Below are positions 28,177 through 50,393 of a stretch of DNA of 58,592 nucleotides, one piece after another. A program made the position numbers and the translations under genes. The DNA comes from an uncultured Leptolinea sp. (GTDB lineage: Bacteria; Chloroflexota; Anaerolineae; Anaerolineales; Anaerolineaceae). Location of the stretch: positions 1 through 58,592 of the forward strand of contig CAYWGX010000001.1 of assembly GCA_964457635.1 (NCBI GenBank). The letters run 5' to 3'. Each line of letters begins with the position of its first letter. The stretch's first letter is position 1. The notes under the pieces are model-generated. The model searched no databases and had not been told where the DNA came from. It saw nothing but the letters and a program-made list of their open reading frames with translations.

Positions 28177-29331
28177 GTGAACCAACGCGATGATGAAAAA
28201 GTTCTGATCATGCTGGACCAAACCCTGGCTGACGCCGGGAACGCGTCCGCGTCAGGCGCAGACCGTGCTCCGGATGACTACAGCACCGAGAGCATGGATT
28301 TCTGCGGCATCACCGCATTGATCCTTGACCACACGGAAGATGTCTTCGCGCTCACCCGTGTCCTGGACAAAAACTCCTCCCAATATCTCAAAACCTGCAA
28401 AGTACTGGTGAAAGCCGTTGACCATCTGGGCAGCGCCTTTCTCACCAAGACCGCCATGATCCAGCGGGGTTTTGATGTGAGCGGTCTTGAGCCGCTTACC
28501 GCGGAACGTCTGAATCAGATGATCTCCTGCAATGCCCGGAAGGTGGATGATGCCCTGCGGATCAAAAAACAGAAAGATCATGAACTGGACACGGACCTGT
28601 TCGAGCTGCTGCTGACCTTCGCCAACACGATGGGAAGGCTGCGTTCCACACAGTACCGTTCCTACAGTCTGAATCTCTGCCTGGCCAATCCCGATAAATT
28701 GGCAGAAAAGGCTCTCTCCTTCACGAAAGAAGACGGCAACCGCAAGCATGCAGCCAAGCACAGCACAAATGCACCTTTCCGCGATTTTCCATCTTATCCG
28801 GTGCGCGTGGATGCAATCATGGGAAATCAGAAATCAGAAATAAGAAATCAGAAATCTGATGAGAATGAAGAAGTAAGAATGAAGAATGAAGAAATGGCGG
28901 GTGAGAATGAAGAAGTCGTCACGGCGGAAATGAATGAAAAAGGGCCGGAAGATTCGGCAGCTTCAGCTTCCGCTGATCAGCATTCTTCCTGCCACAGGGA
29001 ACAGCTCAGCAAAAAGGCTTCCAACCGCAGGGTAGCTGAAGAAATAGCGGAATATGAAGTGAGTGATCCACCGGGAGAGATGGAGACAGCGATGCCGGAA
29101 GATGACGAGATTGAAAAATATCTCAATTGGACGGATGAGCAGGAGCAGAAAATTTTCGAACTGACAGAACCGGAGCAGGATCTGTTCATGGATACGATCT
29201 CTTCTCAAGGCAAGATCAGTCAGCTGAGAAATTGTATCAATGATCCTATGTACAGTCAATTTTATCCGGACCGGGTCGTCATGTGCCGCCATGTGCTGGA
29301 AACCCTGGCTCTCTGGAATCGCGAAAAATAA
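28177..29331 (+). CDS. Hypothetical protein (orphan family member A; paralogue of 49335-50393)
   Basis: GGGAGG RBS with GTG start; 384 aa; own promoter and terminator; aligns with ORF B. Confidence 0.85.
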   Translation: MNQRDDEKVLIMLDQTLADAGNASASGADRAPDDYSTESMDFCGITALILDHTEDVFALTRVLDKNSSQYLKTCKVLVKAVDHLGSAFLTKTAMIQRGFDVSGLEPLTAERLNQMISCNARKVDDALRIKKQKDHELDTDLFELLLTFANTMGRLRSTQYRSYSLNLCLANPDKLAEKALSFTKEDGNRKHAAKHSTNAPFRDFPSYPVRVDAIMGNQKSEIRNQKSDENEEVRMKNEEMAGENEEVVTAEMNEKGPEDSAASASADQHSSCHREQLSKKASNRRVAEEIAEYEVSDPPGEMETAMPEDDEIEKYLNWTDEQEQKIFELTEPEQDLFMDTISSQGKISQLRNCINDPMYSQFYPDRVVMCRHVLETLALWNREK

Positions 29332-29338
29332 AAGTATA

Positions 29339-29396
29339 AAAGCACCTGATATTCGTGTACCGGTTTTGCGTCGGTACACGGATATCAGGCGTTTTT
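29339..29396 (+). terminator. Long-stem terminator after orphan gene A
   Basis: CCTGATATTCGTGTACCG/CGGTACACGGATATCAGG stem followed by TTTTT. Confidence 0.85.
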
Positions 29397-29430
29397 GTGT
29401 TGCAAATCGCTGCCATAACGTTTGAATTTG

Positions 29431-29460
29431 TTGACAGAATCATTTTATTTGAATTAGAAT
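29431..29460 (+). promoter_or_regulatory. Sigma70-type promoter of the T-box leader
   Basis: TTGACA-18 bp-TAGAAT immediately upstream of stem I. Confidence 0.65.
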
Positions 29461-29469
29461 AGAATCTTA

Positions 29470-29737
29470 ATTGCAGTGAAGGAAACCCAGTAGCCTGCCG
29501 AAACGGGACTGCAGAGAATCAGCGGTTGGTGAAAGCTGATGCCCGGCCTCAGGTGAAATACATTCCGGAGCAGCCGGCTGAACCCGTTCTGCGGCAGTAG
29601 GCCTGAGCCGGGTTCGCCCGTTATCGCGAAAGGGATCATATAATTATCCTGCTGAGGCTGTGAATGTGAGTTCACGGTAAACTGAGGTGGTACCACGGGA
29701 ATTCTCGTCCTCTGATGTGTTGTCAGAGGATTTTTTT
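29470..29737 (+). ncRNA. T-box riboswitch, Tyr (UAC) specifier, transcriptional attenuator
   Basis: Stem I with AGTA, AGAGA and GGTGAAAGCTGA; specifier loop GAAA-TAC-A (29559-29561); T-box AAACTGAGGTGGTACCACG; terminator TCCTCTGA/TCAGAGGA plus T7. Confidence 0.93.
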
Positions 29738-29753
29738 ATGGAGGAGATGCTTT

Positions 29754-31391
29754 ATGGTTATTACGGACTTTCTGGAGAGAAATGCCAGGCTTTACGGCAG
29801 CGAAGTTGCCCTTGTTGAAATCAACCCGTCTGAAGACCGGGATCGGGCTTCTACCTGGCGGGAAGCAAATCTGGTTGAAGCTGCCAGCCCCGATGCCCCA
29901 TATCGACGGGAGCTGAATTGGGCTGAATTCGACCGGCGGGCGAACCGTTTTGCGAATCTGCTGCTGAGCCGCGGTACAAAACGCGGTACCAAGGTCGGGA
30001 TCCTGATGATGAACTGCCTGGAATACCTGCCGATCTATTTCGGTATCCTGAAAGCCGGCTGTCTGGCGGTACCGATGAACTTCCGTTACTCGTCCGACGA
30101 GATCCAGTATTGTCTGGACCTGGCTGATGTGGAAATTCTCGTTTTCGGACCGGAATTTGTGAGCCGTATGAATGAGATCGTCCACGATATTCCAAAGACA
30201 AAAACACTGTTCTTTGTGGGAAAAAACGGTCCTGATTACACCGAAGACTGCATTCATTTGATGGGCTTTTGCTCGACCCAGCTGCCGCCGGTTTCTCTGG
30301 ATGAAAACGACTTTGCCGCAATCTATTTCTCATCCGGGACTACAGGCTTCCCGAAAGCGATCCTGCATCGTCATAAGGCGCTGGTCTGTTCCTGCATGAC
30401 GGAACAGAAACATCACGGACAGACCCGGGATGATGTCTTCCTCTGCATACCGCCGCTTTATCATACCGGAGCAAAAATGCACTGGTTCGGCAGTCTGATC
30501 TCCGGCAGCAAAGCGGTTCTGCTGCGCGGTAATAAACCGAAATGGATCCTGCGGGCGGTAACGGAAGAAAAATGCACCATCGTCTGGCTGCTGGTCCCCT
30601 GGGCACAGGACATTCTGGATGCCATTGACCGCGGTGATGTGGACCTGAACCATTACATGCTGGAGCAGTGGCGGCTGATGCACATCGGTGCCCAGCCGGT
30701 GCCGCCCAGCCTCATCAACCGCTGGAAAAAGGTCTTCCCCCACCATGAATATGATACCAACTATGGCCTTTCCGAATCATTGGGTCCGGGCTGCGTGCAT
30801 CTGGGTGTGGAAAACATCCACAAGGTCGGTGCCATCGGCAAACCGGGATACCTGTGGGAGGCCAAAGTCGTCAACGGACATGGCGAAGAGGTGCAGGGCG
30901 ATGAAGTCGGCGAACTGGCTGTTCACGGTCCCGGCGTGATGGAGTGTTATTACAAGAATCCGGAAGCCACGGATGAGATTTTGAAGGACGGCTGGCTCTA
31001 TACCGGTGATATGGCGAAGGTGGATGAGGATGGCTTTATATATCTGGTTGACCGGAAGAAGGATGTGATCATCACCGGTGGTGAGAACCTTTATCCGGTG
31101 CAGATCGAAGATTTCCTGCGAGCTTATGACAAGATCAAGGATGTGGCAGTCATCGGTCTGCCGGACCAGCGTCTGGGTGAAATCGCGGCTGCGATCATCG
31201 AAATCAAACCGGACATGACCTGTACCGAAGAAGATATCACAAATTTCTGCATGAATCTGCCTCGTTACAAAAGACCGCGTAAAATTATATTCGATAAAGT
31301 ACCCCGCAATCCAACGGGGAAAATCGAAAAACCCGCACTGAGAGAAAAGTACTGCAAAGGCCGTTTGGTGGAAGTCCAGATCAACAGCTGA
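29754..31391 (+). CDS. Acyl-CoA synthetase (AMP-binding, class I adenylate-forming); start placed at ATG 29754
   Basis: YFSSGTTGFPK, YGLSE, GWLYTGD, DRKKD, GKI motifs; GGAGGA RBS. Confidence 0.93.
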   Translation: MVITDFLERNARLYGSEVALVEINPSEDRDRASTWREANLVEAASPDAPYRRELNWAEFDRRANRFANLLLSRGTKRGTKVGILMMNCLEYLPIYFGILKAGCLAVPMNFRYSSDEIQYCLDLADVEILVFGPEFVSRMNEIVHDIPKTKTLFFVGKNGPDYTEDCIHLMGFCSTQLPPVSLDENDFAAIYFSSGTTGFPKAILHRHKALVCSCMTEQKHHGQTRDDVFLCIPPLYHTGAKMHWFGSLISGSKAVLLRGNKPKWILRAVTEEKCTIVWLLVPWAQDILDAIDRGDVDLNHYMLEQWRLMHIGAQPVPPSLINRWKKVFPHHEYDTNYGLSESLGPGCVHLGVENIHKVGAIGKPGYLWEAKVVNGHGEEVQGDEVGELAVHGPGVMECYYKNPEATDEILKDGWLYTGDMAKVDEDGFIYLVDRKKDVIITGGENLYPVQIEDFLRAYDKIKDVAVIGLPDQRLGEIAAAIIEIKPDMTCTEEDITNFCMNLPRYKRPRKIIFDKVPRNPTGKIEKPALREKYCKGRLVEVQINS

Positions 31392-31427
31392 GACAGAAAT
31401 ATTCGGTTACTTTGAAAAGAGGTTGTG

Positions 31428-33155
31428 ATGAAGAAATTACTTTTGGGCAATGAAGCCGTGGCAAGGGGCCTGTATGAGGCGGGCTGCGGTTTTGTGTCCT
31501 CTTATCCCGGAACCCCGAGCACGGAAATCACGGAAGAAGCCGCGAAATATGAGGAAATTTATGCGGAATGGGCTCCGAATGAAAAAGTGGCGATGGAAGC
31601 AGCCTTTGGCGCCAGCCTTTCCGGTATCCGCAGTTTCTGCGGTATGAAACATGTTGGCCTGAATGTGGCTGCCGACCCGCTCTTTACCCTGTCCTATACC
31701 GGCGTCAATGCCGGGATGATCATCGCGGTTGCGGATGATGCGGGGATGCATTCCTCACAGAATGAACAGGATTCCCGTCATTATGCTATCGCTGCCAAGC
31801 TGCCGATGTTTGAGCCCGCTGATTCTGCGGAAGCACTGGAATTCACAAAACTGGCATATGAGATCTCCGAAAAGTATGATACCCCGGTCCTGATGAAAAT
31901 GTGCACCCGTGTGGCCCATTCACAAAGCGTTGTGGAATTGAACGAACGTGAGAATGTTGCCCGCAAACCCTACGCCAAAGACGTCACGAAATGGGTCATG
32001 ATGCCTGCCATGGCAAAAAGGCGCCATCCGGTCGTGGAAGAGCGGACCCGCAAACTCGTCGAATTCGCTGAAACTTCTGCGGTGAACCGTGTGGAAGACG
32101 GCAGTGATAACAGCATTGGGATCATCACTTCCTCAACATCTTATCAATATGTCAAGGAAGCCTGCGGTGACCGCTATCCGGTCCTCAAGCTCGGCATGAT
32201 CAACCCGCTGCCGGAACAGAAGATCCGTGAATTTGCAGCTTTGGTGGATCAACTGGTCGTTGTGGAGGAGCTTGATAACATTGTCGAGACACATTGCCGT
32301 TCATTAGGTCTGGATGTCTGCGGAAAAGAGATCTTCCCCCTGATCGATGAATTCAGCCAGAACCTGGTGGCAGAAAAACTGGGACAGAAAAAACATGAAG
32401 GCAAAAAGCTGGATGAGGCTCTGCCCGCCCGTCCGCCTGTGATGTGCGCCGGCTGTCCGCATCGCGGTCTGTTTTATACACTGAAAAAGCTGAAGCTGAC
32501 TGTGTTGGGCGATATCGGCTGCTATACCCTGGGAGCGGCGGCTCCCTTATCCGCGATCGATACCACGATCTGCATGGGGGCTTCAGTCTCCGGGATCCAT
32601 GGCTATAATAAAGCCTCTAATGAAGAAAATGCCGGCAGGACGGTAGCTGTGATCGGTGATTCCACCTTCATGCATTCCGGTGTTACCGGTTTGATCAACA
32701 TCGCCTATAACGAATCCAATTCGACTGTGATCATCCTGGATAACTCCATCACCGGCATGACCGGTCACCAGCAGAATCCTACCACCGGCATCAACCTGAA
32801 AGGCGATCCTGCCGGGAAGATCAACCTGGAAAAGCTTTGCGAGTCCATCGGGATCCAATCGATTCGGGTGGTCGATCCTTATAACCTGAAGCAATGCGAA
32901 GAGACAATCAAAGAAGAACTGGCAAAGGACTGTGCCTCGGTGATCATCTCCCGGCGTCCCTGTGCACTGCTGAAATATGTCAAGCATCCGGGACCGATCG
33001 CGGTGAACCGCGATAAATGTGTGGGCTGCAAATCCTGCATGAAGGTCGGCTGTCCGGCCATCAGCATGAAAGACGGCAAGGCGCTCATTGATAACACGCT
33101 GTGCACCGGCTGCCGTGTCTGCACGCAGATGTGTAAAGTTAACGCTATCGGCTGA
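31428..33155 (+). CDS. iorA: Indolepyruvate (arylpyruvate):ferredoxin oxidoreductase alpha subunit
   Basis: GNEAVARG, YPGTPSTE, KHVGLNVAAD, CAGCPHR, GDIGCY, GDSTF TPP motif; C-terminal 2x[4Fe-4S]. Confidence 0.96.
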   Translation: MKKLLLGNEAVARGLYEAGCGFVSSYPGTPSTEITEEAAKYEEIYAEWAPNEKVAMEAAFGASLSGIRSFCGMKHVGLNVAADPLFTLSYTGVNAGMIIAVADDAGMHSSQNEQDSRHYAIAAKLPMFEPADSAEALEFTKLAYEISEKYDTPVLMKMCTRVAHSQSVVELNERENVARKPYAKDVTKWVMMPAMAKRRHPVVEERTRKLVEFAETSAVNRVEDGSDNSIGIITSSTSYQYVKEACGDRYPVLKLGMINPLPEQKIREFAALVDQLVVVEELDNIVETHCRSLGLDVCGKEIFPLIDEFSQNLVAEKLGQKKHEGKKLDEALPARPPVMCAGCPHRGLFYTLKKLKLTVLGDIGCYTLGAAAPLSAIDTTICMGASVSGIHGYNKASNEENAGRTVAVIGDSTFMHSGVTGLINIAYNESNSTVIILDNSITGMTGHQQNPTTGINLKGDPAGKINLEKLCESIGIQSIRVVDPYNLKQCEETIKEELAKDCASVIISRRPCALLKYVKHPGPIAVNRDKCVGCKSCMKVGCPAISMKDGKALIDNTLCTGCRVCTQMCKVNAIG

Positions 33156-33169
33156 AAAGGAGTTTGGAC

Positions 33170-33745
33170 ATGGAAACGAAAAACATCATGATCGTTGGTG
33201 TCGGCGGGCAGGGAACGCTGCTTGCCAGCAAGCTTCTCGGCCGTTTGCTGCTGACACGGAATTATGACATCAAAGTCAGTGAAGTGCATGGCATGAGCCA
33301 GCGCGGCGGCTCTGTTGTGACGTATGTACGCTATGGGGACAAAGTCTATTCGCCCATTATTGACAAAGGGGAAGCAGACTTTATCCTTTCCTTTGAACTG
33401 CTGGAAGCTGCCCGTGCAGCGGAATGGCTGCGCCCTGAAGGGACGCTGATTACCAATACCCAGCAGATCAATCCGATGCCGGTCATCACCGGCGCGGTGT
33501 CCTATCCGGAAGACCTTTTGGGAAAACTGAAAAATTTGGGGTTGAAGGTCGATGAATTGGACGCTCTTTCGCTTGCACAGCAGGCGGGCTCATCCAAAGC
33601 GGTGAACCTGGTTCTGCTGGGCCGGCTGTCAAATTATTTCCATGACTTCACGGAAAAGGAATGGATGACGGCCATCGAACAGAGCGTTCCGGAAAAATTC
33701 CTGGAAATGAATAAAAAAGCGTTCCATTTGGGACGGATCGCTTAG
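33170..33745 (+). CDS. iorB: Indolepyruvate oxidoreductase beta subunit
   Basis: GVGGQG and SEVHGMSQRGGSV motifs; follows iorA. Confidence 0.96.
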   Translation: METKNIMIVGVGGQGTLLASKLLGRLLLTRNYDIKVSEVHGMSQRGGSVVTYVRYGDKVYSPIIDKGEADFILSFELLEAARAAEWLRPEGTLITNTQQINPMPVITGAVSYPEDLLGKLKNLGLKVDELDALSLAQQAGSSKAVNLVLLGRLSNYFHDFTEKEWMTAIEQSVPEKFLEMNKKAFHLGRIA

Positions 33746-33762
33746 GAGTTATTTTTATTTTT

Positions 33763-35064
33763 ATGAGTGGTAAGTATTTTCAACCCGAAATTGAATGTGC
33801 CGATCCTGCGGAGCTGAAGCGGATCCAGAGTGAAAAACTGGTGAAGCAGGTTTGGCATGTGTGGAACAATGTTCCCTACTATCGTGCCAAGATGGAAGCC
33901 AAAGGTGTCACACCCGAGGATATCCATGGCGTTGAAGACCTTCACAAGCTGCCTTTCCTTTCGAAGGCGGACCTGAAGGAAGCCTATCCTTATGGCCTGA
34001 TGGGCTGTCCCCGCAAGGATGTGGTGCGTATCCAGTCCACATCCGGGACGACCGGCAAACGGGTCATTGCTTTTTACACCAAAGAAGACCTGGACATGTG
34101 GTCCGATTGTACGGCCCGTGCCATTGTGGCTGCCGGCGGTGATGAGAACGATGTGGTGCAGGTCTGTTATGGCTACGGTCTTTTCACCGGCGGCGCGGGA
34201 CTGAATGACGGTTCCCACAAAGTCGGCTGCATGACACTGCCGATGTCTTCGGGAAATACCGAGCGTCAGCTGCAGTTCATGGTCGACCTGGGTGCCACGA
34301 TCCTCTGCTGTACGCCTTCCTATGCTGCTTATCTGGGGGAATCCATCAAAGAAGCCGGCATACGGGATCAGATCCAGCTGAAAGCCGGTATCTTCGGTGC
34401 GGAAGCCTGGAGTGAGGAAATGCGGCACGATATCGAAAAGTCGCTCGGCATCAAGGCTTATGACATTTACGGTCTGACTGAACTGACCGGCCCGGGCGTC
34501 TCTTTTGAGTGTGAAGAACAGAGCGGCATGCACATCAATGAAGATCATTTCATCGCTGAGATCATCGATCCGGAAACGGAAGAAGTTCTTCCAGAAGGAT
34601 CTGTTGGCGAATTGGTGTTCACAGCGATCGATAAGGTCGGTTTCCCGATGATCCGTTACCGCACGCGGGATATCTGCGTTCTCAAGCGGGAAAAATGCTC
34701 CTGCGGGCGCACGTTCATCAAGATGGGCAAACCGATGGGCCGCTCTGATGTCATGCTGATCATCAAGGGCGTGAACGTCTTCCCGTCTCAAATCGAAGCT
34801 GTTCTGCTTGAGGAAGGCTTCCCTGCCAACTATCAGATCATCGTGGACCGTGTCAATAATTCCGATACACTGGAAGTCCAGGTCGAAATGACACCGGAAT
34901 TGTTCTCGGATAATCTGGGTAAGATCAGTGAAGTCGAGAAACAGCTCATCGGTTCTCTGAAGGCTATGCTGGGAATTTATGCGAAAGTTCGTCTGGTTGC
35001 GCCGAAATCCATCACACGCAGTGAAGGCAAGGCCGTCCGGGTGATCGACAAGCGTAAGATCTGA
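33763..35064 (+). CDS. paaK: Phenylacetate--CoA ligase family protein
   Basis: STSGTTGK, YGYGLFTGG, TPSYA, GAEAWSE, YGLTE, RYRTRD, GKAVRVIDKR. Confidence 0.93.
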   Translation: MSGKYFQPEIECADPAELKRIQSEKLVKQVWHVWNNVPYYRAKMEAKGVTPEDIHGVEDLHKLPFLSKADLKEAYPYGLMGCPRKDVVRIQSTSGTTGKRVIAFYTKEDLDMWSDCTARAIVAAGGDENDVVQVCYGYGLFTGGAGLNDGSHKVGCMTLPMSSGNTERQLQFMVDLGATILCCTPSYAAYLGESIKEAGIRDQIQLKAGIFGAEAWSEEMRHDIEKSLGIKAYDIYGLTELTGPGVSFECEEQSGMHINEDHFIAEIIDPETEEVLPEGSVGELVFTAIDKVGFPMIRYRTRDICVLKREKCSCGRTFIKMGKPMGRSDVMLIIKGVNVFPSQIEAVLLEEGFPANYQIIVDRVNNSDTLEVQVEMTPELFSDNLGKISEVEKQLIGSLKAMLGIYAKVRLVAPKSITRSEGKAVRVIDKRKI

Positions 35065-35077
35065 CTGGAGGAATCTC

Positions 35078-35509
35078 ATGGAAATTTATCAGGTTTCAGT
35101 ATTTTTGGAAAACCAGGCAGGGAAATTGTCTGAGGTGACGAACCTGCTGGCTGAAAACGGGATCGACCTTCGTGCCATCAACATTGCAGAATCTTCCGAT
35201 TACGGTGTGCTTCGCATCATCACCAGTGATGCGGAGAAGGCTGTTGAGGTTCTGCGCGAACACGGTTTTATCGTGAACTGCACGGCAGTCCTCGGTGTCA
35301 GTGTCCCGGACCGTCCGGGCGGACTGGCACACCTTCTGCGTCAGCTGGCGGAAGAGAACTTTGATGTGGAGTATATGTATTCTGTCTTCGGTCAGCCGAA
35401 CGGTCTCGCATACATGATTTTGCGTGTAGATAATATCGAAGAAGTTCGTGCATCGCTCGAAAGAGATGGCATCCATACTGCCGATTGTGCAGAATTGGGA
35501 ATAAAATAG
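35078..35509 (+). CDS. Tandem ACT-domain protein
   Basis: QVSVFLEN..GKL, DRPGGLA, VEYMY; typical neighbour of paaK/ior. Confidence 0.92.
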   Translation: MEIYQVSVFLENQAGKLSEVTNLLAENGIDLRAINIAESSDYGVLRIITSDAEKAVEVLREHGFIVNCTAVLGVSVPDRPGGLAHLLRQLAEENFDVEYMYSVFGQPNGLAYMILRVDNIEEVRASLERDGIHTADCAELGIK

Positions 35510-35583
35510 ATGTCAGTTGCCAGTTGCCAGTTGTAATAGGTGGGCGCTTTGCGCCTTTAATTTGAGAAAGAGGTACCTAAAAG

Positions 35584-36750: not shown

Positions 36751-36779
36751 AGAACATCATTGTAATCAAATGGGAATTG

Positions 36780-36811
36780 CAGCAGGAAGACCGTTTCCGG
36801 TTTCCTGCTGT
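36780..36811. terminator. Hairpin between convergent genes
   Basis: CAGCAGGAA-gACCG-tttc-CGGT-TTCCTGCTG. Confidence 0.65.
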
Positions 36812-36816
36812 TTGTT

Positions 36817-41152: not shown

Positions 41153-41160
41153 TTGGGATA

Positions 41161-42102: not shown

Positions 42103-42180
42103 ATTCAGTCACTATTTTATTGACGAAATCCTTTGTAATCATTATAATTACGAAGTTGATTTTGGTTAAGGAGAAACGAA

Positions 42181-42408
42181 ATGAAAACATTCTTTGACAT
42201 TGCTCTTATTATAACTTCGATTGCGGTAGTTGTTCTGGTTGTGCTTCAGAATCGTGGCGTAGGAATGGGCAGCATTGCCGGCGGCAGTGATCCCAGCAGC
42301 ATTTTCACCCAGCGCCGCGGTGTTGAAAAAGTGATTTTCAACCTGACAATGGTCTTCAGCATTCTGCTTGTGATCCTGGTTGTTCTGAGCATCCTGCTTT
42401 TCAAATAA
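42181..42408 (+). CDS. secG: Preprotein translocase subunit SecG
   Basis: Two TMs; VLQ..G.GMG...GG, RRGVEK; AAGGAG RBS. Confidence 0.93.
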   Translation: MKTFFDIALIITSIAVVVLVVLQNRGVGMGSIAGGSDPSSIFTQRRGVEKVIFNLTMVFSILLVILVVLSILLFK

Positions 42409-42421
42409 TCTGAAATGATTG

Positions 42422-42453
42422 AAAGAGCGGCAATGATTCAGCTGCTCTTTTTT
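42422..42453 (+). terminator. Terminator after secG
   Basis: AAAGAGCGGC/GCTGCTCTTT hairpin plus U-tract. Confidence 0.75.
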
Positions 42454-42503
42454 GTTTTAAATTTATTATTATCATTTATAATAAGCAGATAAGTCGAAAT
42501 ATT

Positions 42504-44201
42504 ATGAAAAGATTACGTTGGCAGCTTATTACAATATTTCTGGCCGGTCTTGTAGTTGGCATACTGTTGCTGACAGACTCAAGCACCGGTCCTATTCAGG
42601 TTTTCGAAAGTCACCCGACGACCGGCGGTATATATCGTGAAGGCCTTGTCGGTGAAATTCAGCGTCTGAATCCTCTGCTCAGTTGGTACAATGATGTGGA
42701 TGATGATATTTGCCGATTGCTTTTCAGCAGCCTGGTTACTTATGACACAAGAGGGAATCCTGTAGGCGATCTGGCAATCGACTGGGGAATATCTATTGAT
42801 GGTATGACCTATAATTTTGCGATCAATCCGAATGCACAGTGGCATGACGGTCAGCCTGTTACCGCAGATGATGTTATTTTCACCTATGAATTACTGAAGT
42901 CCGGTAAAGGATATGTACCTGATGACATCATTAATTTTTGGAACAATGTAACAATCAATCCGGTCGAGACGAAATCATTACAATTTGTTCTTGACGAAGC
43001 ATTTTCACCATTTCTTGATTATCTGAATGTCGGTATCCTTCCCAGGCATATCTATGGCGGTATGTCTTTTGAAGAAATGGTAGATTCCAAAATCAATATC
43101 CAGCCTATCGGCTCCGGGCCATTCCGCTTGAAAGAACTCGTGCAGGATAACGGGAAAATTACAGGGGTAACGATAGAGAACAATTCTGCTTATTACGGGA
43201 AAAGGCCCTACCTTGACGAGATCGAATTCACTTATTATTTAGACAGCAGCCTGGCTTATCAAGCTTACCAACAGGGATTGATCGATGGGATCAGTTACGT
43301 CTCCGGAGATATACTTTCCCGGGTTCTTGCAGATGAAGATATGAATTTGTACACTGCAAGGCGTCCTGTTTTGAGCATGGTGTTTTTTAATCTCGACAAC
43401 CGGCAGGTCGAATTCCTGCAGTCAAAAGGAATCAGAAATGCATTGATGACCGGCTTGAACCGTGAAAAAATCATCAATCAAATCATATCCGGTCAGGCGA
43501 TTATTGCGAACAGTCCGATTCTGTATGGAAATTGGGCTTATACAGCGGAAGGCGCAATTCCTGAGTACAATTCGGAAAAGGCCATTGAAATGCTTGTCAA
43601 GGAAGGCTTTATTATTGCCAGTGAACAGGAACGTGTTCGGACGAAGGAAATTACCTCCGTTGATGGAAACACCGAAAGAAAGGCATTGTCCTTCACGATG
43701 GTTTATCCGGACGATGATCTGCACAGAAGAATTGCGGAATCGATTCAGCAGGATTGGGGAAAAATCAACGTTATGCTGAATCTTGAAGCGGTCAGTTACG
43801 ATGATCTGGTCAATCATGTGTTGCCTGACCGGGAATATGAGGCGGCCCTGGTGGACCTGAACCTTTCCGAATACCCAGATCCAGATCCTTATCCGTTCTG
43901 GGATCAAACCCAGATATCATCGGGTCAGAATTATACACAATGGAATAATCGGACTATCAGTCAATATCTGGAAACAGCCAGGGTGGAAATTGACCGTGGT
44001 GAGCGAGCACGGTTATATAAAAATTTCCAGATTCTTTTTATGGAAGAACTACCCGCACTGCCTCTTTATAATCCGGTTTATAACTACCCGGTTTCGCAAA
44101 AAGTCTCCGGTGTGAGTATTGGCCCGATTTATAAACCCTCTGACAGATTCCTCAATATCACGGATTGGTATATGGTTTCGCGATCATCTGTGGTTGAATA
44201 A
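42504..44201 (+). CDS. Peptide/nickel ABC transporter substrate-binding protein (SBP family 5), standalone
   Basis: LNPL, DLA..W, WHDGQPVTADDVIFT, IGSGPF, DPDP motifs. Confidence 0.92.
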   Translation: MKRLRWQLITIFLAGLVVGILLLTDSSTGPIQVFESHPTTGGIYREGLVGEIQRLNPLLSWYNDVDDDICRLLFSSLVTYDTRGNPVGDLAIDWGISIDGMTYNFAINPNAQWHDGQPVTADDVIFTYELLKSGKGYVPDDIINFWNNVTINPVETKSLQFVLDEAFSPFLDYLNVGILPRHIYGGMSFEEMVDSKINIQPIGSGPFRLKELVQDNGKITGVTIENNSAYYGKRPYLDEIEFTYYLDSSLAYQAYQQGLIDGISYVSGDILSRVLADEDMNLYTARRPVLSMVFFNLDNRQVEFLQSKGIRNALMTGLNREKIINQIISGQAIIANSPILYGNWAYTAEGAIPEYNSEKAIEMLVKEGFIIASEQERVRTKEITSVDGNTERKALSFTMVYPDDDLHRRIAESIQQDWGKINVMLNLEAVSYDDLVNHVLPDREYEAALVDLNLSEYPDPDPYPFWDQTQISSGQNYTQWNNRTISQYLETARVEIDRGERARLYKNFQILFMEELPALPLYNPVYNYPVSQKVSGVSIGPIYKPSDRFLNITDWYMVSRSSVVE

Positions 44202-44226
44202 ACAGGGATTGTAATGAGTGATATAA

Positions 44227-44256
44227 GCAAGGGCAGCATCTGCTGCTCTTGTGTTT
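44227..44256. terminator. Terminator between convergent genes
   Basis: GCAAGGGCAGCA-tc-TGCTGCTCTTGT hairpin. Confidence 0.65.
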
Positions 44257-45065
44257 TAAATATAACGGTAATAGACGGGATACTGTTTACCCTGAATACG
44301 GAAGTTCAGCTGTTCATAAAAATGGACTGCATTTGAATTGTTCCGGTTGGTATTTACACTGAAACTCCTCACCCCGTTTTCTTTGGCATCTGAGACCATT
44401 TTTCTGATCATGGCTGTGGCTGCACCTCTGTTTTGGAATTCAGGAGAAACCACTAATCGCTGAATATGGCAGTTATCATCGGCATAGTCAGCTAAAAGAC
44501 AACCAATGATTTGGTGATTTTCCATTATTGCCAGCTTGTAGGAGGATGTTCTCAAGGCGCAATTTGATTCCGCTGGATTCAAGCGCCATATAGGGGGAAA
44601 GATGGTTTCATACTGCAAAATGATCTCTTCAGACAAATCTTCACAAAATTCGAACGTTTGATCAGATGCGTTGTGCGCCGGAATATTTAATGCGGTGGAT
44701 TCCATCTCAATGATCTCGTCATAGCTGTGAAAATTGTTTTTTTCTAATAATTTGTTATACCAACTGTGTGATGAGATCGTGTAGACCGAATGCCTGCCCG
44801 GTGAAAGCAGTTCTCTTATTTTTTGGGCTAAAGGATACTCGCCGGGGGCAATATCTGAATAAAATGAGTGGAGCCAAATTATCGAATTGTTGACAGGCTG
44901 TAATCCGATTAAATAGTTACTTTTCCTCCTGGTGTCGAGCCAAACGGAGCCATTGGCTTCATGCAGATCCCACAATTCGAGCCATCCGAGGTGGGTGTTT
45001 TGATAAATTGAGCCACGGAATAATGACTCAACTGATTCTTTTTCGGTAAAATTTACAGATCTCAA
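44256..45065 (-). CDS. GNAT family N-acetyltransferase
   Basis: C-terminal LVVSPEFQNRGAA, N..AVHFYEQLNF. Confidence 0.85.
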   Translation of the reverse strand: MRSVNFTEKESVESLFRGSIYQNTHLGWLELWDLHEANGSVWLDTRRKSNYLIGLQPVNNSIIWLHSFYSDIAPGEYPLAQKIRELLSPGRHSVYTISSHSWYNKLLEKNNFHSYDEIIEMESTALNIPAHNASDQTFEFCEDLSEEIILQYETIFPPIWRLNPAESNCALRTSSYKLAIMENHQIIGCLLADYADDNCHIQRLVVSPEFQNRGAATAMIRKMVSDAKENGVRSFSVNTNRNNSNAVHFYEQLNFRIQGKQYPVYYRYI

Positions 45066-45925
45066 AGAGAACTCAGTTTATCGATGATAGCTTCCAGCTC
45101 TTCATCGGAATAATAGTGAATATTGATAGATCCGGTACCGTTTTTTGCAGGACGGAGGGACACCTTCGTCCCCATGGATTGGCGTAGCTTGTTCTCTATT
45201 TCTTTATATTCTGGCGTGAGCTCATTTTTGACCCTTTTCGCCTTTTTGCTGCTTTCCCCCAGCAGACTGCGTATATATTCTTCAGTTTGACGAACACTAA
45301 GCTCATTTCTGATAATATGGTTCATTGCATTGATCTGTGCCTGCGGTGTAGGAAGAGATAGTAGTACTCTTGCATGTCCTTCTGTTATGGCCTTTTCAAG
45401 AAGTGCCTTCTGAACCTCTCCGGGAAGCTTCAGTAAACGCATCGTGTTGGTGACGGAAGCGCGGTTTTTTCCGACACGTTTGGAAATCTCTTCGTGTGTG
45501 AGATTGAAATTTTCTTCAAGACTTTTATAGGCTTCGGCAGCTTCCAAAGGGGATAAATCTTCCCGCTGAATGTTTTCGATCAGAGCCAGTTCCAGTAATT
45601 CGCGGTCGTCAGCCTGACGGGTAATTACCGGTACAGTATTCAATCCGGCGATTTGGGATGCGCGAAGCCGTCTTTCTCCGGCGATCAGTGTATATGTGCC
45701 ATCAGCCTGTTCACTGACAACCAGCGGTTGGATGACCCCATGCTCGCGTATTGAATCCGCAAGTTCAGAAAGTTCATTATCCGTAAAGCGAGTCCGGGGC
45801 TGGCGGGGATTTGGGACGATTGACGAAATCGAAACCATTTTTACGGAATCGTTTGTGTCCATCAGAGAATTGGAAAATAATGCATCCAGGCCCCGTCCTA
45901 ATCCTGATTTTTTCTGAGCTGCCAT
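45062..45925 (-). CDS. parB: ParB/Spo0J partition protein
   Basis: GLGRGLDAL, PNPRQPR, AGERRLRA, ENIQREDL, HTH. Confidence 0.97.
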   Translation of the reverse strand: MAAQKKSGLGRGLDALFSNSLMDTNDSVKMVSISSIVPNPRQPRTRFTDNELSELADSIREHGVIQPLVVSEQADGTYTLIAGERRLRASQIAGLNTVPVITRQADDRELLELALIENIQREDLSPLEAAEAYKSLEENFNLTHEEISKRVGKNRASVTNTMRLLKLPGEVQKALLEKAITEGHARVLLSLPTPQAQINAMNHIIRNELSVRQTEEYIRSLLGESSKKAKRVKNELTPEYKEIENKLRQSMGTKVSLRPAKNGTGSINIHYYSDEELEAIIDKLSSL

Positions 45926-45943
45926 ATTTGTCCCCCGATTCTT

Positions 45944-46705
45944 TTATTTATCCTGATTCAGAATTTCCATAGCAAGTGATTCATATGCTTTTGCTGCATT
46001 GCTGTCTTTCGCATAATAATTAATAGGTTGTCCGTAGGAAGGTGCTTCCGCCAGGCGTACACTGCGCGGTATGATGCTCTGAAAAACTTTGTCCGGAAAA
46101 TATCGGCGGACCTCCCGGACAACATCCATCGCGAGACGCGTTCTGCCATCAAACATCGTGAGAACTACCCCCCTGACATTCACCTGCGGGTAGGAGCGTT
46201 TGACACGATAGATCGTCTGTGTAAGCTGACCAAGACCTTCCAGCGCCAGGTATTCACACTGAACAGGAATGATAACACCGTTTTTTGCTGCGATCAATGC
46301 GTTGATGGTGAGCTGGTTCAGGGATGGCGGGCAATCGATCATCACATAATCAAATTGATCATTCACCTCATTCAAGGCATTCATCAGCCGTTTTTCTCTG
46401 TCGGAAAATTCAATCAATTCGATTTCAGCGCCGGCAAGTGAAGGTGAAGATGGTAAAAGGGAAAGATTAAAATTATCATTTTTTATGACTTCGTCTTTGA
46501 TGGAAGCTGTACCGATCAACACGCCATAGGTGCCATATTTGATTTCGTTTTTATCATATCCGAGTGAGGATGTCGCATTGGCCTGCGGATCCATATCAAC
46601 GATTAGCACACGTTTTCCATGCTTAGCCAGACATGATCCGAGATTGATCGCGGTTGTGGTTTTTCCTACTCCGCCCTTTTGATTGATTAATGTATATATT
46701 TTCAA
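45944..46705 (-). CDS. parA: ParA/Soj ATPase (start placed at TTG 46705)
   Basis: NQKGGVGKTT, DMDPQAN, DCPP, PVQCEYLALEG, RLAEAPS. Confidence 0.96.
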   Translation of the reverse strand: MKIYTLINQKGGVGKTTTAINLGSCLAKHGKRVLIVDMDPQANATSSLGYDKNEIKYGTYGVLIGTASIKDEVIKNDNFNLSLLPSSPSLAGAEIELIEFSDREKRLMNALNEVNDQFDYVMIDCPPSLNQLTINALIAAKNGVIIPVQCEYLALEGLGQLTQTIYRVKRSYPQVNVRGVVLTMFDGRTRLAMDVVREVRRYFPDKVFQSIIPRSVRLAEAPSYGQPINYYAKDSNAAKAYESLAMEILNQDK

Positions 46706-46727
46706 GATGATAACGATCCTTTCAATT

Positions 46728-47207
46728 TCAGGACGATTTTTCATCGATAAATGGTTTTTGCTGCTGCTCTCCGCAATAAGGGCAAAGATTCCAGGGAAGT
46801 TCAATAGATTTCCCGCAGCTGACACATTTCTTTTTGATTTTTGTATGACAATAGGGACAGAGTATCCAGTCATTTTGGATGCTGTGCCCGCAGCTTGGAC
46901 ATTTTTCAGATATTCCGATTTCACGAAGCAAAGCTTCTTCTTCGATTGCATCCTGGTATTTTTGCTCGAAGGTTTTCCTGGGGCGGATGAATAAATAAAT
47001 AAACACGCCGGGCAGGAACAAAACGATCACAAAAAAAACGCTGAGGATGATCATAAAAGGGTCTCTGGTCCGTGACCGGATATCCCGCAGCACCCAGAGG
47101 ATCAAACCGATCCACAGCGCTGCAATAAATGCGATGCCGAATGCTATCGCATAGGTCATCAGGTTCTTCAGCGTGAATGAATCCAAAAAAGCTAAGCTAT
47201 TATTCAT
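46728..47207 (-). CDS. Membrane protein with a double zinc ribbon
   Basis: Two N-terminal TMs; CPSC/CPYC/CVSC/CPYC. Confidence 0.85.
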   Translation of the reverse strand: MNNSLAFLDSFTLKNLMTYAIAFGIAFIAALWIGLILWVLRDIRSRTRDPFMIILSVFFVIVLFLPGVFIYLFIRPRKTFEQKYQDAIEEEALLREIGISEKCPSCGHSIQNDWILCPYCHTKIKKKCVSCGKSIELPWNLCPYCGEQQQKPFIDEKSS

Positions 47208-47266
47208 AACTTTGCAATTATAGCACAAAAAGTTATAATGGAGGTGCGGAACGGGGGAGAAAATAC

Positions 47267-47872
47267 GTGGATAGTATGATGGATGCAATTTTTTACAGTT
47301 TTTCAGCTTTGATCATCTCGCTGCTGTATTTACCGATATACATTCGTACGCGGAATGAAGATGATCTGAAGAATACTGTAAAAAGAAAATTACCCATAAA
47401 ACTTGTGTTATGCTTCGGCTTCGGACTTCTGATCGGGGCTGATTTCATGGCCGATATGCCGGAAATACCGAAAATTTTGGCGGCATTCTCACTGATGCTG
47501 ATTACAAATTATGATTTATTGCTCTGCAGAATACCGACAGAATTCCTGCTTTTTTTTTATGCTGCGGCAATAACGGAGGCCATACAGCACACAACCATAG
47601 CGTATGGAAGCTTCTGTATGATGATCTGGGCTGTCTGGTGGATCTTCAGGCAGAAAAAAATTATCGCCGATTATGATCTGTGGATGATCCTTCCGCTCAT
47701 GATCTTCCTGAATGAAAAGAAAAAAGCATTGCTGTTCAATGCTCTCTTTCTTATCTTATGGGGAATTGCCGGCTTAATTCTGCGCAAGCTCTTCAGGAAA
47801 AAACCTGAGACAAAAATTCCGCTTGTTCCCTTAATGGTTCTTGCGTATCTGCTTATGCGTCGGTTTTTGTAA
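47267..47872 (+). CDS. Membrane protein resembling a divergent prepilin peptidase (A24)
   Basis: YD....RIP, ADYD and C-terminal KIPLVP resemble A24 motifs; multi-TM. Confidence 0.55.
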   Translation: MDSMMDAIFYSFSALIISLLYLPIYIRTRNEDDLKNTVKRKLPIKLVLCFGFGLLIGADFMADMPEIPKILAAFSLMLITNYDLLLCRIPTEFLLFFYAAAITEAIQHTTIAYGSFCMMIWAVWWIFRQKKIIADYDLWMILPLMIFLNEKKKALLFNALFLILWGIAGLILRKLFRKKPETKIPLVPLMVLAYLLMRRFL

Positions 47873-48281
47873 GATTGTCAGCGATTGAACCGAGAACACC
47901 GTTAACAAATTTCGGCGCTGTTTCAGATCCGAAAGTCTTTGCCAGTTCCACGGATTCATTGATCGCAACGCGGTCCGGCGTTTCTTTTGCAACGGCAAAT
48001 TCATAAGCAGCAATGCGGATAATGTTGCGGTCGATCGCGGCGATCTGCTCGATAGGCCAGTCTGAGGCATATTTCCGGATCATATCATCGATCTCGTTCT
48101 TGTTATTGATAACACCGACAACAAGATCAATGACAAACTTCTTGGCATCGTCATCAGGTACATTTTCGGAATCAAAACGATTCGTTAATATATCCGTGAT
48201 GCTGTGATCGGAAAGATCATACTCATATAGAGCCTGCAGCGCTATTCCGCGTAAAAAGGTGCGTTCTTTTAATTCTGCCAT
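47853..48281 (-). CDS. nusB: Transcription antitermination factor NusB
   Basis: ALQALYE, IDRNIIR, VAINESVELAKTFG, FVNGVLG. Confidence 0.97.
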   Translation of the reverse strand: MAELKERTFLRGIALQALYEYDLSDHSITDILTNRFDSENVPDDDAKKFVIDLVVGVINNKNEIDDMIRKYASDWPIEQIAAIDRNIIRIAAYEFAVAKETPDRVAINESVELAKTFGSETAPKFVNGVLGSIADNLTKTDA

Positions 48282-48285
48282 AAGC

Positions 48286-48609
48286 TTAATTTGTTTTTGG
48301 ATAATTAAAATCTTCGATATGAATGTTTACATAACCGATATTCATGCCGACCATTTCCTTGATGGCACGTGCAATCTTTTTTTGCAGACGCTTGCAGACG
48401 TCCATTGTGCTGCAGTCTGCCTCCAATACAATATAGACATCCGCATTGACAGTCCCATCGCTGATCTTCATCTTAACGCCGTTTTGAGCATTATTGCTGC
48501 TGTAAAGACGTGCTACGCCTACAGTATCATCGGCAGTCATTTGGACGATGGTCTCAATGACTTCAGGTGCTACGGTTGTGTTTCCCGGTACTCGTTCTTT
48601 TTCTTTCAT
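48286..48609 (-). CDS. Asp23/Gls24 family protein (start placed at ATG 48609)
   Basis: G.T.VAPEVIE, GVK, Q..I...I.EM.G.....VNIHI; canonical position upstream of nusB. Confidence 0.9.
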   Translation of the reverse strand: MKEKERVPGNTTVAPEVIETIVQMTADDTVGVARLYSSNNAQNGVKMKISDGTVNADVYIVLEADCSTMDVCKRLQKKIARAIKEMVGMNIGYVNIHIEDFNYPKTN

Positions 48610-48744
48610 ATTTATATATATGTCCTTTTGCTCATCAATTTGGTTGAAAATTACGCCCCGGCCTCTGAGAGCCGGCCCCGGCTGCTTTTTCAAACTTTTC
48701 CTCAATGATGATAATTATAAAGGATTTTTTGATATTTTCAATAA

Positions 48745-49167
48745 TTAGCTGTCCCTTATTTCAAAAATATCATCGAAACTGATTTTTACGCCGTTTGTAA
48801 ATTCGATGCAATTGTCATAAATATCGATTTTCCTTAGATTTCCACTGATTTCGTGATAGCTTCCGCCCGTTTTCCTGGTATCGGGAACGAAGAACTTTAC
48901 GCGGATAAAAGGCTTTTCTTTTATTTTTGATTTTAGAATGACCAGTTTCCTGTTGATGATCTCCTTTTCACGTTCATCCAGAATTTTTTTTTCTTCTGTT
49001 GTTCTTCCGATTTCACGGATCACTTCTGAATAACCGGTGAGTGCTGCAAAGGGAGCAAATTGCGCTGCCCGGGCAGACAGCGGCATGCGCTGATGGAATT
49101 GTGGTTCGGGCCTCTCTATTAAAAGAATATCATCGTAATCATGAATACTGGATAAATTTTTCTGCAT
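48745..49167 (-). CDS. YolD-like protein
   Basis: YDDI....P.....RM....RAAQFAPFAALTGY, FVPD..K.GG.Y motifs. Confidence 0.8.
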   Translation of the reverse strand: MQKNLSSIHDYDDILLIERPEPQFHQRMPLSARAAQFAPFAALTGYSEVIREIGRTTEEKKILDEREKEIINRKLVILKSKIKEKPFIRVKFFVPDTRKTGGSYHEISGNLRKIDIYDNCIEFTNGVKISFDDIFEIRDS

Positions 49168-49187
49168 ATAGATCTTTGTTCCACTTA

Positions 49188-49254
49188 ATGTGCCATTGGG
49201 GATGGTTCTCTCTGCACTATACGGTGCGCCGTGCAACCGGCCCTGTTGGCACAT
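49188..49254. repeat. Divergent REP-like repeat (copy 6)
   Basis: ATGTGCCA/TGGCACAT ends; CATTGGGGATGGTTCTCTCTGC resembles copy 3; AACCGGCCC resembles AACCGTCCC. Confidence 0.65.
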
Positions 49255-49334
49255 ATTTAATCAATGTTTCCTTAACTGATTATAACCGAAAATGTGCATT
49301 TTCGGCTTAGAAAACAGGTGTTTCTGGCTTTTCG

Positions 49335-50393
49335 TTACCCGTCCGGACGGGCGTATTCATAATGCGGGAAGATCCATTCCAGAAATTCCTCATCGCTCAT
49401 GCGTTCGAGTCTGGTTGTCCGCTCCTCATCTTCATCGAAGAAGGAGAGATCGTCCTCTCCGGAATCGTATCCTTCGAACGGATCGGGCTCTTCATCTGGC
49501 TCTTCGTCAACGGGTTTCGGAGGAAAGTCCTCTGCCGTGTCCGGTTCCGGGAGATGCTCTTGAGAGATCTCTTCCGGAGCCGGTGCCGGGCTTAGCTCGT
49601 CTTCGATGAGCAGCTCTTCTCTTACGGCAGCTTTGGCTTCCCGATAGCTTTCTTCCGGCTCACCCTGTGGGGCATACGCCTTTTCCCATTCGCGGAGTGC
49701 GCCTTTGTCGATTGACAGCGCCCTCCCGGACTCCATCAGGGAACCGCTTGGTTCGGATTCGGCATGATCCGCGGACTTTTCCGCTTTCTGAAGTTCGGAC
49801 AGCTTTTCTTCTCTGTCCGGAAGCTCCACTTTGATTTTCCCGGCTTTGATCTTCTCGATTTTTTCCTCAGTGGCCCGGAGGCGCTTGTCCAGCGCCGCCC
49901 AGCGGATGGAGAGGGAAAAGGCTTCCTGATTATAGCGCTGTTCTTCCTGGCTTTCCATGAAGGAATCAAAACACTTCCGGAAATTTACGGCAGCCATTTC
50001 CCGCAGGTTGCGGATGGTAATGTTCCGCAGATAATAATCAAATTCAAAGCTGTTCTCTTCCCGCTGTTCGATTACCGCTTTGGTGATGCAGATGCTGCCC
50101 AGTTGTTTGAGCATTTTTCCGAAATGCGCGGAGATTTTCAGGAACATGGGAGAATGACGGTTCAGCAGGCGAACGAGTTTAAAGGCCTCATTTGCCTCGG
50201 CTTCCAGCATTCTGGCGGTTTCTACGAATTCGAGAGGTTCCGTGCTGTAGAAGTCGATCGGTTCAAAGGGTAAGCCATAGGCATCCTGCCCGTTTTCCAT
50301 GAAACCGGCAGAATTATCTTCATTATGCGGCGGCTCTTTTCCGTAGATGATATCCATGAAATTGGAATTAAAGTCGATATCCTGAATGTTCAT
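49335..50393 (-). CDS. Hypothetical protein (orphan family member B; paralogue of 28177-29331)
   Basis: GGGAGG RBS 10 nt before ATG 50393; 352 aa; aligns with ORF A; acidic Pro-rich tail. Confidence 0.85.
   Translation of the reverse strand: MNIQDIDFNSNFMDIIYGKEPPHNEDNSAGFMENGQDAYGLPFEPIDFYSTEPLEFVETARMLEAEANEAFKLVRLLNRHSPMFLKISAHFGKMLKQLGSICITKAVIEQREENSFEFDYYLRNITIRNLREMAAVNFRKCFDSFMESQEEQRYNQEAFSLSIRWAALDKRLRATEEKIEKIKAGKIKVELPDREEKLSELQKAEKSADHAESEPSGSLMESGRALSIDKGALREWEKAYAPQGEPEESYREAKAAVREELLIEDELSPAPAPEEISQEHLPEPDTAEDFPPKPVDEEPDEEPDPFEGYDSGEDDLSFFDEDEERTTRLERMSDEEFLEWIFPHYEYARPDG

What the first reader, a model, noticed from the sequence alone, without database searches (positions are those of the whole stretch)
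28177..50393. Two dispersed orphan genes (28177-29331 + and 49335-50393 -) are paralogues of an unrecognised protein family
Seen: the N-terminal domains align without gaps over 65 aa with 21 identities by hand count: DDYSTESMDF...FALTRVLDKNSSQYLK...K...LGSAFLTKTAMIQR versus DFYSTEPLEF...FKLVRLLNRHSPMFLK...K...LGSICITKAVIEQR. Two further blocks align: L...T...L..M...N.RK..D (8/24) and F.L....A....RLR.T (7/17). Both proteins then have a long acidic low-complexity region and a short, apparently structured C-terminus. Each gene has its own promoter-like element, a TTACG..GGAGG RBS region and a downstream hairpin, and sits among unrelated housekeeping genes with REP-like repeats next to it. I do not recognise the domain. 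Inference: two copies within 59 kb suggest a lineage-specific expanded, possibly mobile or selfish, cassette family. Possible roles include a helical nucleic-acid-binding protein, a DNA mimic, or a mobility-associated factor. This is the best candidate for an undescribed system here.
Basis: partly seen in the sequence, partly recalled or inferred. Interest (0 to 1): 0.85.

Follow-up and report, generated by a model that had tools for sequence, protein, structure and literature searches.

The report
Spreading orphan-gene cassettes of gut Chloroflexi
These two genes belong to a large, unnamed family of helical proteins, each packaged between a shared promoter piece and usually a hairpin end and scattered in 4 to 41 copies through one group of animal-gut bacteria; they are likely a mobile element without its own transposase, predicted to switch on with DNA damage or with a domesticated phage-head operon.

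Summary
Confirmed and extended. A (28177-29331+) and B (50393-49335-) are true paralogues (BLASTP E 3e-14; 0 of 2000 shuffles). The family (F1) has 14 copies in this genome, 4-41 in 8 of 25 genus genomes, and none in 150 family or 400 phylum genomes. No Pfam, NCBIfam, PHROG or specific fold match; the domain is a predicted four-helix bundle under purifying selection (dN/dS 0.09). Copies behave as cassettes: near-identical copies at unrelated sites share a sharp left edge (TACCACA promoter module, or a second promoter type with LexA-like boxes) and often a right edge 10 nt past a conserved hairpin. A's site is empty in two relatives and holds an inverted copy of another subfamily in a third. 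A second orphan family (F2) uses the same ends, and the left module is also the promoter of a single-copy phage capsid gene in 8 of 8 carriers. No transposase, target duplication or terminal inverted repeat. The mover is not shown; a TIRYT-type HUH transposase, found in 7 of 8 carriers, is the best candidate. Protein function is unproven.

The parts
27868..28007 (.). Two inverted-repeat units (GGGACGG...CCGTCCC, TIR/REP-like) just outside the left edge of cassette A
   Evidence: the same repeat type flanks the Y1 genes
28032..28101 (+). Left-end / promoter module of A: TACCACA, 12 nt, TGTCAA, palindrome (degenerate here), TTGCAA, 17 nt, TAAACT
   Evidence: palindrome does not fold better than shuffles in A (z -0.3)
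28105..28159 (+). Heptamer tandem repeats in the 5' leader
   Evidence: TRF
28177..29331 (+). F1 gene A, 384 aa: conserved helical domain at about 28273-28716, heptamer repeats inside the linker (28823-28893), acidic linker, short C-terminal helical region
29338..29396 (+). Long terminator-like hairpin after A; not the family hairpin
   Evidence: -19.1 kcal/mol, 0 of 200 shuffles
50488..50556 (-). Left-end / promoter module variant of B: TACCACA, 42-nt palindrome centred on CAATATTG, TATACT
   Evidence: z -5.4
49335..50393 (-). F1 gene B, 352 aa; conserved domain at 49803-50288
   Evidence: model pLDDT 89 for residues 30-250
49274..49307 (-). Family right end: hairpin AGCCG...CGGTT (49307-49284) plus 10 nt ending GTT at 49274
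49168..49271 (.). 104-nt repeat-bearing segment just outside B's right end; skipped by one contig of run X8, breakpoint 2 nt past the conserved GTT
   Evidence: table 5 (one contig, depth 6.5, 187 letters on the shorter side)

Best explanation
A and B are two of 14 copies in this genome of a promoter-gene-hairpin cassette that is likely a non-autonomous mobile element, probably cut and joined as single-stranded DNA by the host's TIRYT-type HUH (Y1) transposase, and its conserved helical protein likely serves the cassette's own copying when DNA damage or the phage-head programme would switch it on. Shown: the family, its confinement to one clade, sharp shared ends, independent insertion sites, purifying selection, and a promoter module shared with a second orphan family and with the chromosomal capsid gene. 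Inferred: (1) that the ends are cut sites rather than only footprints of selection (about 0.75); (2) that the Y1 enzyme is the mover (about 0.5 given 1); (3) that LexA and a palindrome-binding regulator control expression (about 0.65); (4) that the protein works as a non-enzymatic, cis-acting adaptor for spread rather than as a host effector (about 0.45).
For: Copies: 14 in G000; 4-41 matches in 8 of 25 genus genomes. Site A empty in G180 and G001, and filled by an inverted B-type copy in G008. Only 8 cross-genome pairs among 116 loci share a flank gene, none with both flanks in the same orientation. F2 copies C32 and C57 are 99% identical from 2 nt before TACCACA and 96% identical up to 10 nt past the hairpin, with unrelated flanks and an internal deletion in one; F1 pairs show the same edges. 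T at +9 after the hairpin in 96% of 60 ends, conservation near zero beyond +12; 45 of 45 in the class-assigned set. A hairpin with a fixed end about 10 nt away and no target duplication (13 elements) is the geometry of IS200/IS605 right ends (recalled). Long Y1 genes with a Y---NP motif, C-terminal HTH-like tail and GGGGWSAS-type flanks occur in 7 of 8 carriers, matching TIRYT / subclass 2.1.2 (PMC3733652, PMC6006769, passages); 3 of 17 such genes lie next to a cassette. dN/dS median 0.09 over 31 disjoint pairs; 84 of 97 closed ORFs intact. LexA-like boxes at 32 of 45 class-2 promoters against 7 of 64 AT-rich control promoters. Module at the capsid gene in 8 of 8 carriers.
Against: No guide-to-cleavage base pairing of the IS608 kind was found at the right end. 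None of 22 Y1 loci carries the cassette ends. No Y1 gene was found in carrier G183 (94% complete). The carriers look like one clade that has also expanded unrelated dispersed genes (PF05635), so co-occurrence with Y1 is one event. The family hairpin is missing from 40 of 95 closed copies, A among them. Repeat units lie within 100 nt of only 25 of 99 left and 25 of 61 right ends (control 12-13%, from G000 alone). A and B are in place in the strains laid wherever contigs covered them, with no excised or empty form among the joints shown. The left module is also a fixed promoter of a non-mobile gene, so part of its sharpness is selection. A and B have class-1 promoters, so the LexA count does not apply to them directly.
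Confidence: 0.42

Rival explanations
1. Mobile cassette as above, but the protein is kept because it helps the host: a DNA-damage-induced effector family (for example anti-phage or toxin-like) whose variable tails give different specificities.
For: At least 8 old subfamilies span several species, with distinct C-terminal regions; LexA-like boxes; strong purifying selection; F2 is a single-copy, apparently fixed gene in the two closest non-carriers G014 and G182.
Against: No Pfam, NCBIfam or PHROG family (PADLOC was not run). Bursts of 5-9 near-equivalent copies in one species are more than a host function usually needs. No invariant acidic, His, Tyr or Ser residue in the 59-sequence alignment.
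Confidence: 0.25
2. Not an element: genes were duplicated by recombination among the abundant inverted and heptamer repeats, and the 'ends' are just the promoter and terminator that selection kept, homogenised by gene conversion.
For: The module is a working promoter at the capsid gene and evolves in step with same-genome cassette modules in 5 of 7 genomes. Promoter types are swapped across the protein tree (B lies in a class-2 clade). Heptamer and inverted repeats lie in leaders, linkers and trailers.
Against: Edges are exact even between 96-99% identical copies, too young for selection to trim flanks. The 10 nt after the hairpin are a poor U-tract, yet position +9 is fixed. Module-only and internally deleted copies keep the same left edge.
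Confidence: 0.17
3. The cassettes hitchhike on the domesticated phage-head (gene-transfer-agent-like) particle: they share its promoter so as to be expressed in producing cells and bias packaging of their own DNA or protein.
For: The module precedes the protease-capsid gene in 8 of 8 carriers and the peptidase-portal unit in G009; the capsid gene is single-copy in most of 24 of 25 genus genomes. In G014 and G182 the lone F2 gene has the TGCCGGTTTAC motif also seen at the G014 capsid promoter.
Against: More than half of class-assigned F1 copies (56 of 103) use the other promoter type. Packaging does not explain insertion at new chromosomal sites. No particle has been shown; I did not look for a terminase.
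Confidence: 0.11
4. RNA-mediated copying by a reverse transcriptase, the right edge being the transcript's 3' end.
For: The right edge follows a terminator-like hairpin at a fixed distance.
Against: The copied unit includes the -35 region and 30-45 nt upstream. No RVT_1 match in G009 or G181, which hold 29 and 40 copies.
Confidence: 0.05

Closest known systems
Non-autonomous IS200/IS605 derivatives and REPINs moved in trans by HUH Y1 enzymes (RAYT; TIRYT / subclass 2.1.2 in PMC3733652 and PMC6006769)
   Same: No own transposase, no terminal inverted repeats, no target duplication; a subterminal hairpin with a fixed end about 10 nt away; intergenic sites often beside inverted repeats; a Y1 enzyme of this type in 7 of 8 carriers.
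   Different: Carries a 1-1.8 kb expressed gene under strong selection; one end is a promoter module shared with a chromosomal operon; no guide/cleavage pairing found; the Y1 genes do not share these ends.
Four-helix-bundle / 23S rRNA IVP genes (PF05635) and DGR Avd
   Same: Small helical bundle, dispersed intergenic copies, expanded in the same clade (5-8 matches in 7 carriers).
   Different: Profile comparison not convincing (29 columns, E 0.037, probability 1.4%); not among the top 50 fold matches; 0 of 16 loci carry the module or hairpin; F1 is three times longer.
Rpn / YhgA-like dispersed paralogue families (recalled)
   Same: Conserved N-terminal domain, highly variable repeat-rich tail, many scattered copies in particular lineages.
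   Different: No PD-(D/E)XK domain, all-helical model, no conserved acidic residues; internal start sites were not tested.
Gene transfer agents and phage satellites that share a helper's late promoter (recalled)
   Same: A single-copy, conserved protease-capsid and portal cluster beside dnaA whose promoter is shared with the cassettes.
   Different: The cassettes have no integrase or replication gene and are 1-2 kb; no F1 match in 50,697 phage records.

Membership tests
IS200/IS605 family incl. non-autonomous derivatives | Encodes or derives from TnpA(Y1)/TnpB | tested here: not met
   No Pfam/NCBIfam match in 59 members; Y1 loci lack the ends
IS200/IS605 family incl. non-autonomous derivatives | Subterminal hairpins at both ends | tested here: inconclusive
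   Right hairpin in 55 of 95 closed copies; left palindrome with compensatory arms in class 1 (79 and 56 paired against 42 and 25 shuffled at two positions, 90 related sites), weak in A, none defined for class 2
IS200/IS605 family incl. non-autonomous derivatives | Guide tetranucleotide pairs with the cleavage site | tested here: not met
   No clear covariation at 68 right ends, best z 3.0 at an unexpected pair; left end checked by eye only against recalled rules
IS200/IS605 family incl. non-autonomous derivatives | No target-site duplication | tested here: met
   13 complete class-1 elements, longest shared word 2-5 nt, none at the junctions
REPIN / TIRtron | Element bounded by a pair of REP/TIR repeats | tested here: not met
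   Repeat motif within 100 nt outside 25 of 99 left and 25 of 61 right ends; shared identity starts inside the repeats
REPIN / TIRtron | Cognate Y1 enzyme cleaves the ends | not testable with these tools
   needs biochemistry
DDE IS / MITE | Terminal inverted repeats and target duplication | tested here: not met
   Left and right ends are unrelated sequences; no duplication
IS110/IS1111 | DEDD recombinase in the genome; circle-junction promoter | tested here: inconclusive
   PF02371 not found in G000 (70% complete), found in G009 and G010; joining the ends would complete a TAAAnT -10 in 6 of 13 class-1 and 5 of 32 class-2 ends
PF05635 four-helix bundle / Avd | Sequence-profile homology | tested here: not met
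PF05635 four-helix bundle / Avd | Same fold | tested here: inconclusive
   Only generic helical bundles, best Z 11.5, rmsd 3.1, 115 aligned, a designed protein
Rpn/YhgA-like | PD-(D/E)XK nuclease domain | tested here: not met
   All-helical model; invariant residues only K111 and T146
LexA (SOS) regulon | LexA box overlapping the promoter | tested here: met
   Class-2 promoters 32 of 45 at 7 bits or more; controls 7 of 64; shuffles 35 of 450. Motif inferred, copies related; not scored for class 1
LexA (SOS) regulon | Induction by DNA damage, LexA binding | not testable with these tools
   no RNA holder listed

The most novel reading that the evidence does not exclude
A new class of transposase-free mobile element: interchangeable promoter modules and two orphan helical proteins (F1, F2, possibly one superfamily) ride on a common hairpin end, the protein acts in cis to get its own cassette copied, and the cassette has wired itself into the SOS response and the promoter of a domesticated phage-head operon so that it multiplies, and perhaps is packaged, when the cell's DNA is damaged.
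Probability: 0.22. Interest if true: 0.9.

Novelty: new variant of a known kind. Interest (0 to 1): 0.72.

Why it matters
It is a clean case of an orphan family going from none to dozens of copies in one clade, with defined ends, selection on the protein and a candidate trigger. It gives testable substrates for TIRYT-type HUH enzymes, whose activity the cited papers leave untested, and it points to an apparently undescribed, conserved phage-head cluster beside dnaA in this genus and to its promoter. If the protein acts in cis, it would be a new mobility factor with no catalytic signature.

Tried and rejected
Known families: Pfam, NCBIfam (59 members) and PHROGs (12 members) gave no family shared by more than 3 members; PDB sequence search only coiled-coil noise; ESM Atlas no usable hit; Foldseek PDB and viral no match at E 0.001 or better; VIA-align only generic bundles; F2 likewise. 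These blanks do not show that the fold is new. F1-F2 homology: in-register alignment of RK and R..T motifs but E 0.26; both models start with four long helices; left open. F1 domain with capsid domain, one complex job: no answer, no evidence either way. DnaA box: 0 of 90 left edges match TTWTNCACA. Phages: no F1 match in 50,697 records; 12 IMG/VR matches to the module pattern, none with F1, F2 or capsid within 1.5 kb. Strain-level empty sites: none among the joints shown for 4 runs; run X8 has no cover over part of A, which proves nothing. No RNA holder listed. Site B: no F1 copy follows the Met-synthase activation gene in 7 other carriers, but the next gene differs there, so this is not a strict empty site. 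Earlier scan findings: three look-ups, nothing. Literature: searches listed nothing that describes this family or cluster; the library lacks most subscription journals and I read no supplements.
Full report
Observation. ORFs A (28177-29331 +, 384 aa) and B (50393-49335 -, 352 aa) are present. BLASTP gives 39/132 identities, E 3e-14, with the 65-residue ungapped block and 21 identities as described; the local alignment score of 168 exceeds all 2000 shuffles (maximum 87).

Family and range. A profile finds 14 copies in G000, which is 70% complete; a further N-terminal piece ends contig C20. At E 1e-30 or better 8 of 25 genus genomes match: G000 14, G001 16, G008 23, G009 29, G010 41, G180 12, G181 40, G183 4 (matches, not exact copy numbers). 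None was found in 150 family genomes, 400 phylum genomes (only up to 7 candidates scored per genome) or five non-carriers at E 0.1. By identity of three marker proteins the carriers are each other's closest relatives, so this is probably one clade and one origin. Against 1.84 billion representatives the profile hits 361 proteins, 328 at 1e-10 or better: a large, closed, unnamed family. A record with two members is titled 'uncultured Chloroflexi bacterium'; laid runs holding the window are labelled gut and goat gut.

Protein. The model of B residues 30-250 (59 sequences) has pLDDT 89 and is all-helical: four long helices with a short one inserted. No family or specific fold matched. Invariant residues are K111 and T146, nearly invariant T75, L101, R142, L143, with no conserved acidic, His, Tyr or Ser residue, so an enzyme is unlikely (inference). 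The domain is near neutral; tails vary from -37 to +23 net charge and end in subfamily-specific motifs. Among 31 disjoint pairs with dS 0.03-1, 28 within one genome, median dN/dS is 0.09, and 84 of 97 closed ORFs are full length; several of the other 13 are repeats of one locus or cut by contig ends. The tree shows old subfamilies shared across species plus species-specific bursts (FastTree, midpoint root, partial domains left out).

Positions. At A's site G180 and G001 have desulfoferrodoxin, rubredoxin, T-box leader and acyl-CoA ligase with no cassette; G008 has a B-type copy in the opposite orientation; G009, G010 and G181 differ in gene order and G183's contig ends. Of 116 loci with a usable flank (70 with both; at most 1.5 kb each), 8 cross-genome pairs share a flank gene, and only A/L038 shares both, inverted.

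Ends. Class 1 (47 of 116 loci) starts at TACCACA, then 12 nt, WGTCAA, a palindrome centred on CAAYRTTG, and a -35/-10 pair. Class 2 (56 loci) starts about 40 nt before a TTGACA-17-TAnnnT promoter; 13 were unassigned. The class-1 pattern, derived from carrier sequences, occurs 7-39 times in each of the 8 carriers, in 0 of 17 non-carriers and 0 times reversed. Palindrome arms show compensatory change (sites are related). The right end is a GCCG...CGGCT hairpin plus 10 nt: T at +9 in 96% of 60 ends, little conservation after +12. It was found in 13 of 34 class-1, 32 of 50 class-2 and 10 of 11 unassigned closed copies; A lacks it, B has it. Near-identical copies diverge at these edges, in G010 and G001 some 10-14 nt further left. 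No target duplication in 13 complete elements. One X8 contig skips 49168-49271, starting 2 nt beyond B's conserved GTT.

Second family. Of 26 module sites in G009, 13 precede F1 by profile, 1 an F1 fragment, 5 a second orphan family F2, 2 phage-like genes, and 5 run off contig ends. F2 has 39 homologues without Pfam, 4-27 matches in the same 8 carriers and a single copy in G014 and G182, and uses the same module and hairpin. F1-F2 homology is unproven (E 0.26).

Shared promoter. The phage-like genes are a protease-capsid fusion (PF25209) and a peptidase-portal unit lying beside dnaA and a LuxR-type gene in G009. The capsid gene is found in 24 of 25 genus genomes, mostly once. Its promoter is the module in 8 of 8 carriers; of 16 non-carriers read (2 cut short) none has the whole module, G014 has its right half and G012 a CAATATTG palindrome. 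The capsid module is closest to same-genome cassette modules in 5 of 7 genomes; G009's is closer to G180's and G008's to others. The direction of borrowing is not established.

Regulation. lexA, recA and capsid promoters hold TAGAA-n6-TTCTA-like boxes, akin to the GAAC-N4-GTTC LexA motif of Gram-positives (PMC3323433, passage seen; its use in Chloroflexi is recalled). A matrix from 28 such sites (18 capsid, 10 lexA/recA, three of them poor picks) scores 7 bits or more at 32 of 45 class-2 promoters, 7 of 64 AT-rich G000 promoters (one itself an F1 promoter; controls less AT-rich, 0.72 against 0.78) and 35 of 450 shuffles.

Mover. Y1 matches occur in 11 of 25 genomes. The long type flanked by GGGAC-type inverted repeats, with Y---NP and an HTH-like tail judged by eye, is in 7 of 8 carriers and fits TIRYT / subclass 2.1.2 (passages of PMC3733652 and PMC6006769; no supplements read); two weak non-carrier matches were not inspected. 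Against: these genes lack the cassette ends, guide pairing was not found, repeat adjacency is modest, G183 lacks a match. IS110 was not found in G000, nor reverse transcriptase in G009 or G181. Other recombinase families were not surveyed.

Verdict. A real, apparently undescribed cassette family with good evidence of past mobility and of a selected protein; mover, trigger and protein role are inferred. It works most like a non-autonomous HUH-moved element but fails membership tests for IS200/IS605, REPIN and MITE. Interest 0.72.

Noticed in passing
L247-L248 (G009:C9:99690-116200); G000 C222 and C216; L339: Conserved phage-head cluster (protease-capsid fusion, collagen-bearing fibre-like protein, M23 peptidase, portal) beside dnaA and a LuxR-type gene; capsid in 24 of 25 genus genomes with LexA-like boxes. 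Looks like a domesticated gene-transfer-agent-like operon; no paper found.
   Followed up: partly
L237:1221-2165 - (G000:C32), C57, C271, C143; L301, L302: Second orphan family F2 (helical N-terminus plus small beta-rich C-terminal domain, pLDDT 87) on the same ends; single copy upstream of an Asp23 gene in G014 and G182.
   Followed up: partly
G000 C10:143-, C73:5056-, C98:249-: Left module with no long ORF behind it (C73) or running off a contig end.
   Followed up: no
window 2056-2287, 27636-27661, 28105-28159, 28823-28893, 35514-35533: Heptamer tandem repeats, often a purine-rich run followed by a pyrimidine-rich run, in intergenic DNA and inside F1 linkers; abundant in all carriers read.
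   Followed up: no
window 21305, 24003-24042, 25496, 26990-27029, 27876-27998, 37027, 51497, 52370; L187, L198: GGGAC-type inverted repeats; 431 matches to GGGGWSAS in G000; two TIRYT-like Y1 genes in G000 and up to five per carrier.
   Followed up: partly
L323-L338: PF05635 four-helix-bundle genes expanded to 5-8 matches in 7 carriers, 0-2 in non-carriers, none found in G000.
   Followed up: partly
L250:3018 and 4736 (G001:C71): The module also precedes a C39-like peptidase gene and two small unknown ORFs beside phage-like DNA; other captured passengers are possible.
   Followed up: no
   Followed up: no
L011 (G000:C80), L090, L094, L097: A different conserved downstream hairpin (AGCG(T/C)TGAAA...TTTCAGCGC) ends some copies that lack the family hairpin.
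   Followed up: no
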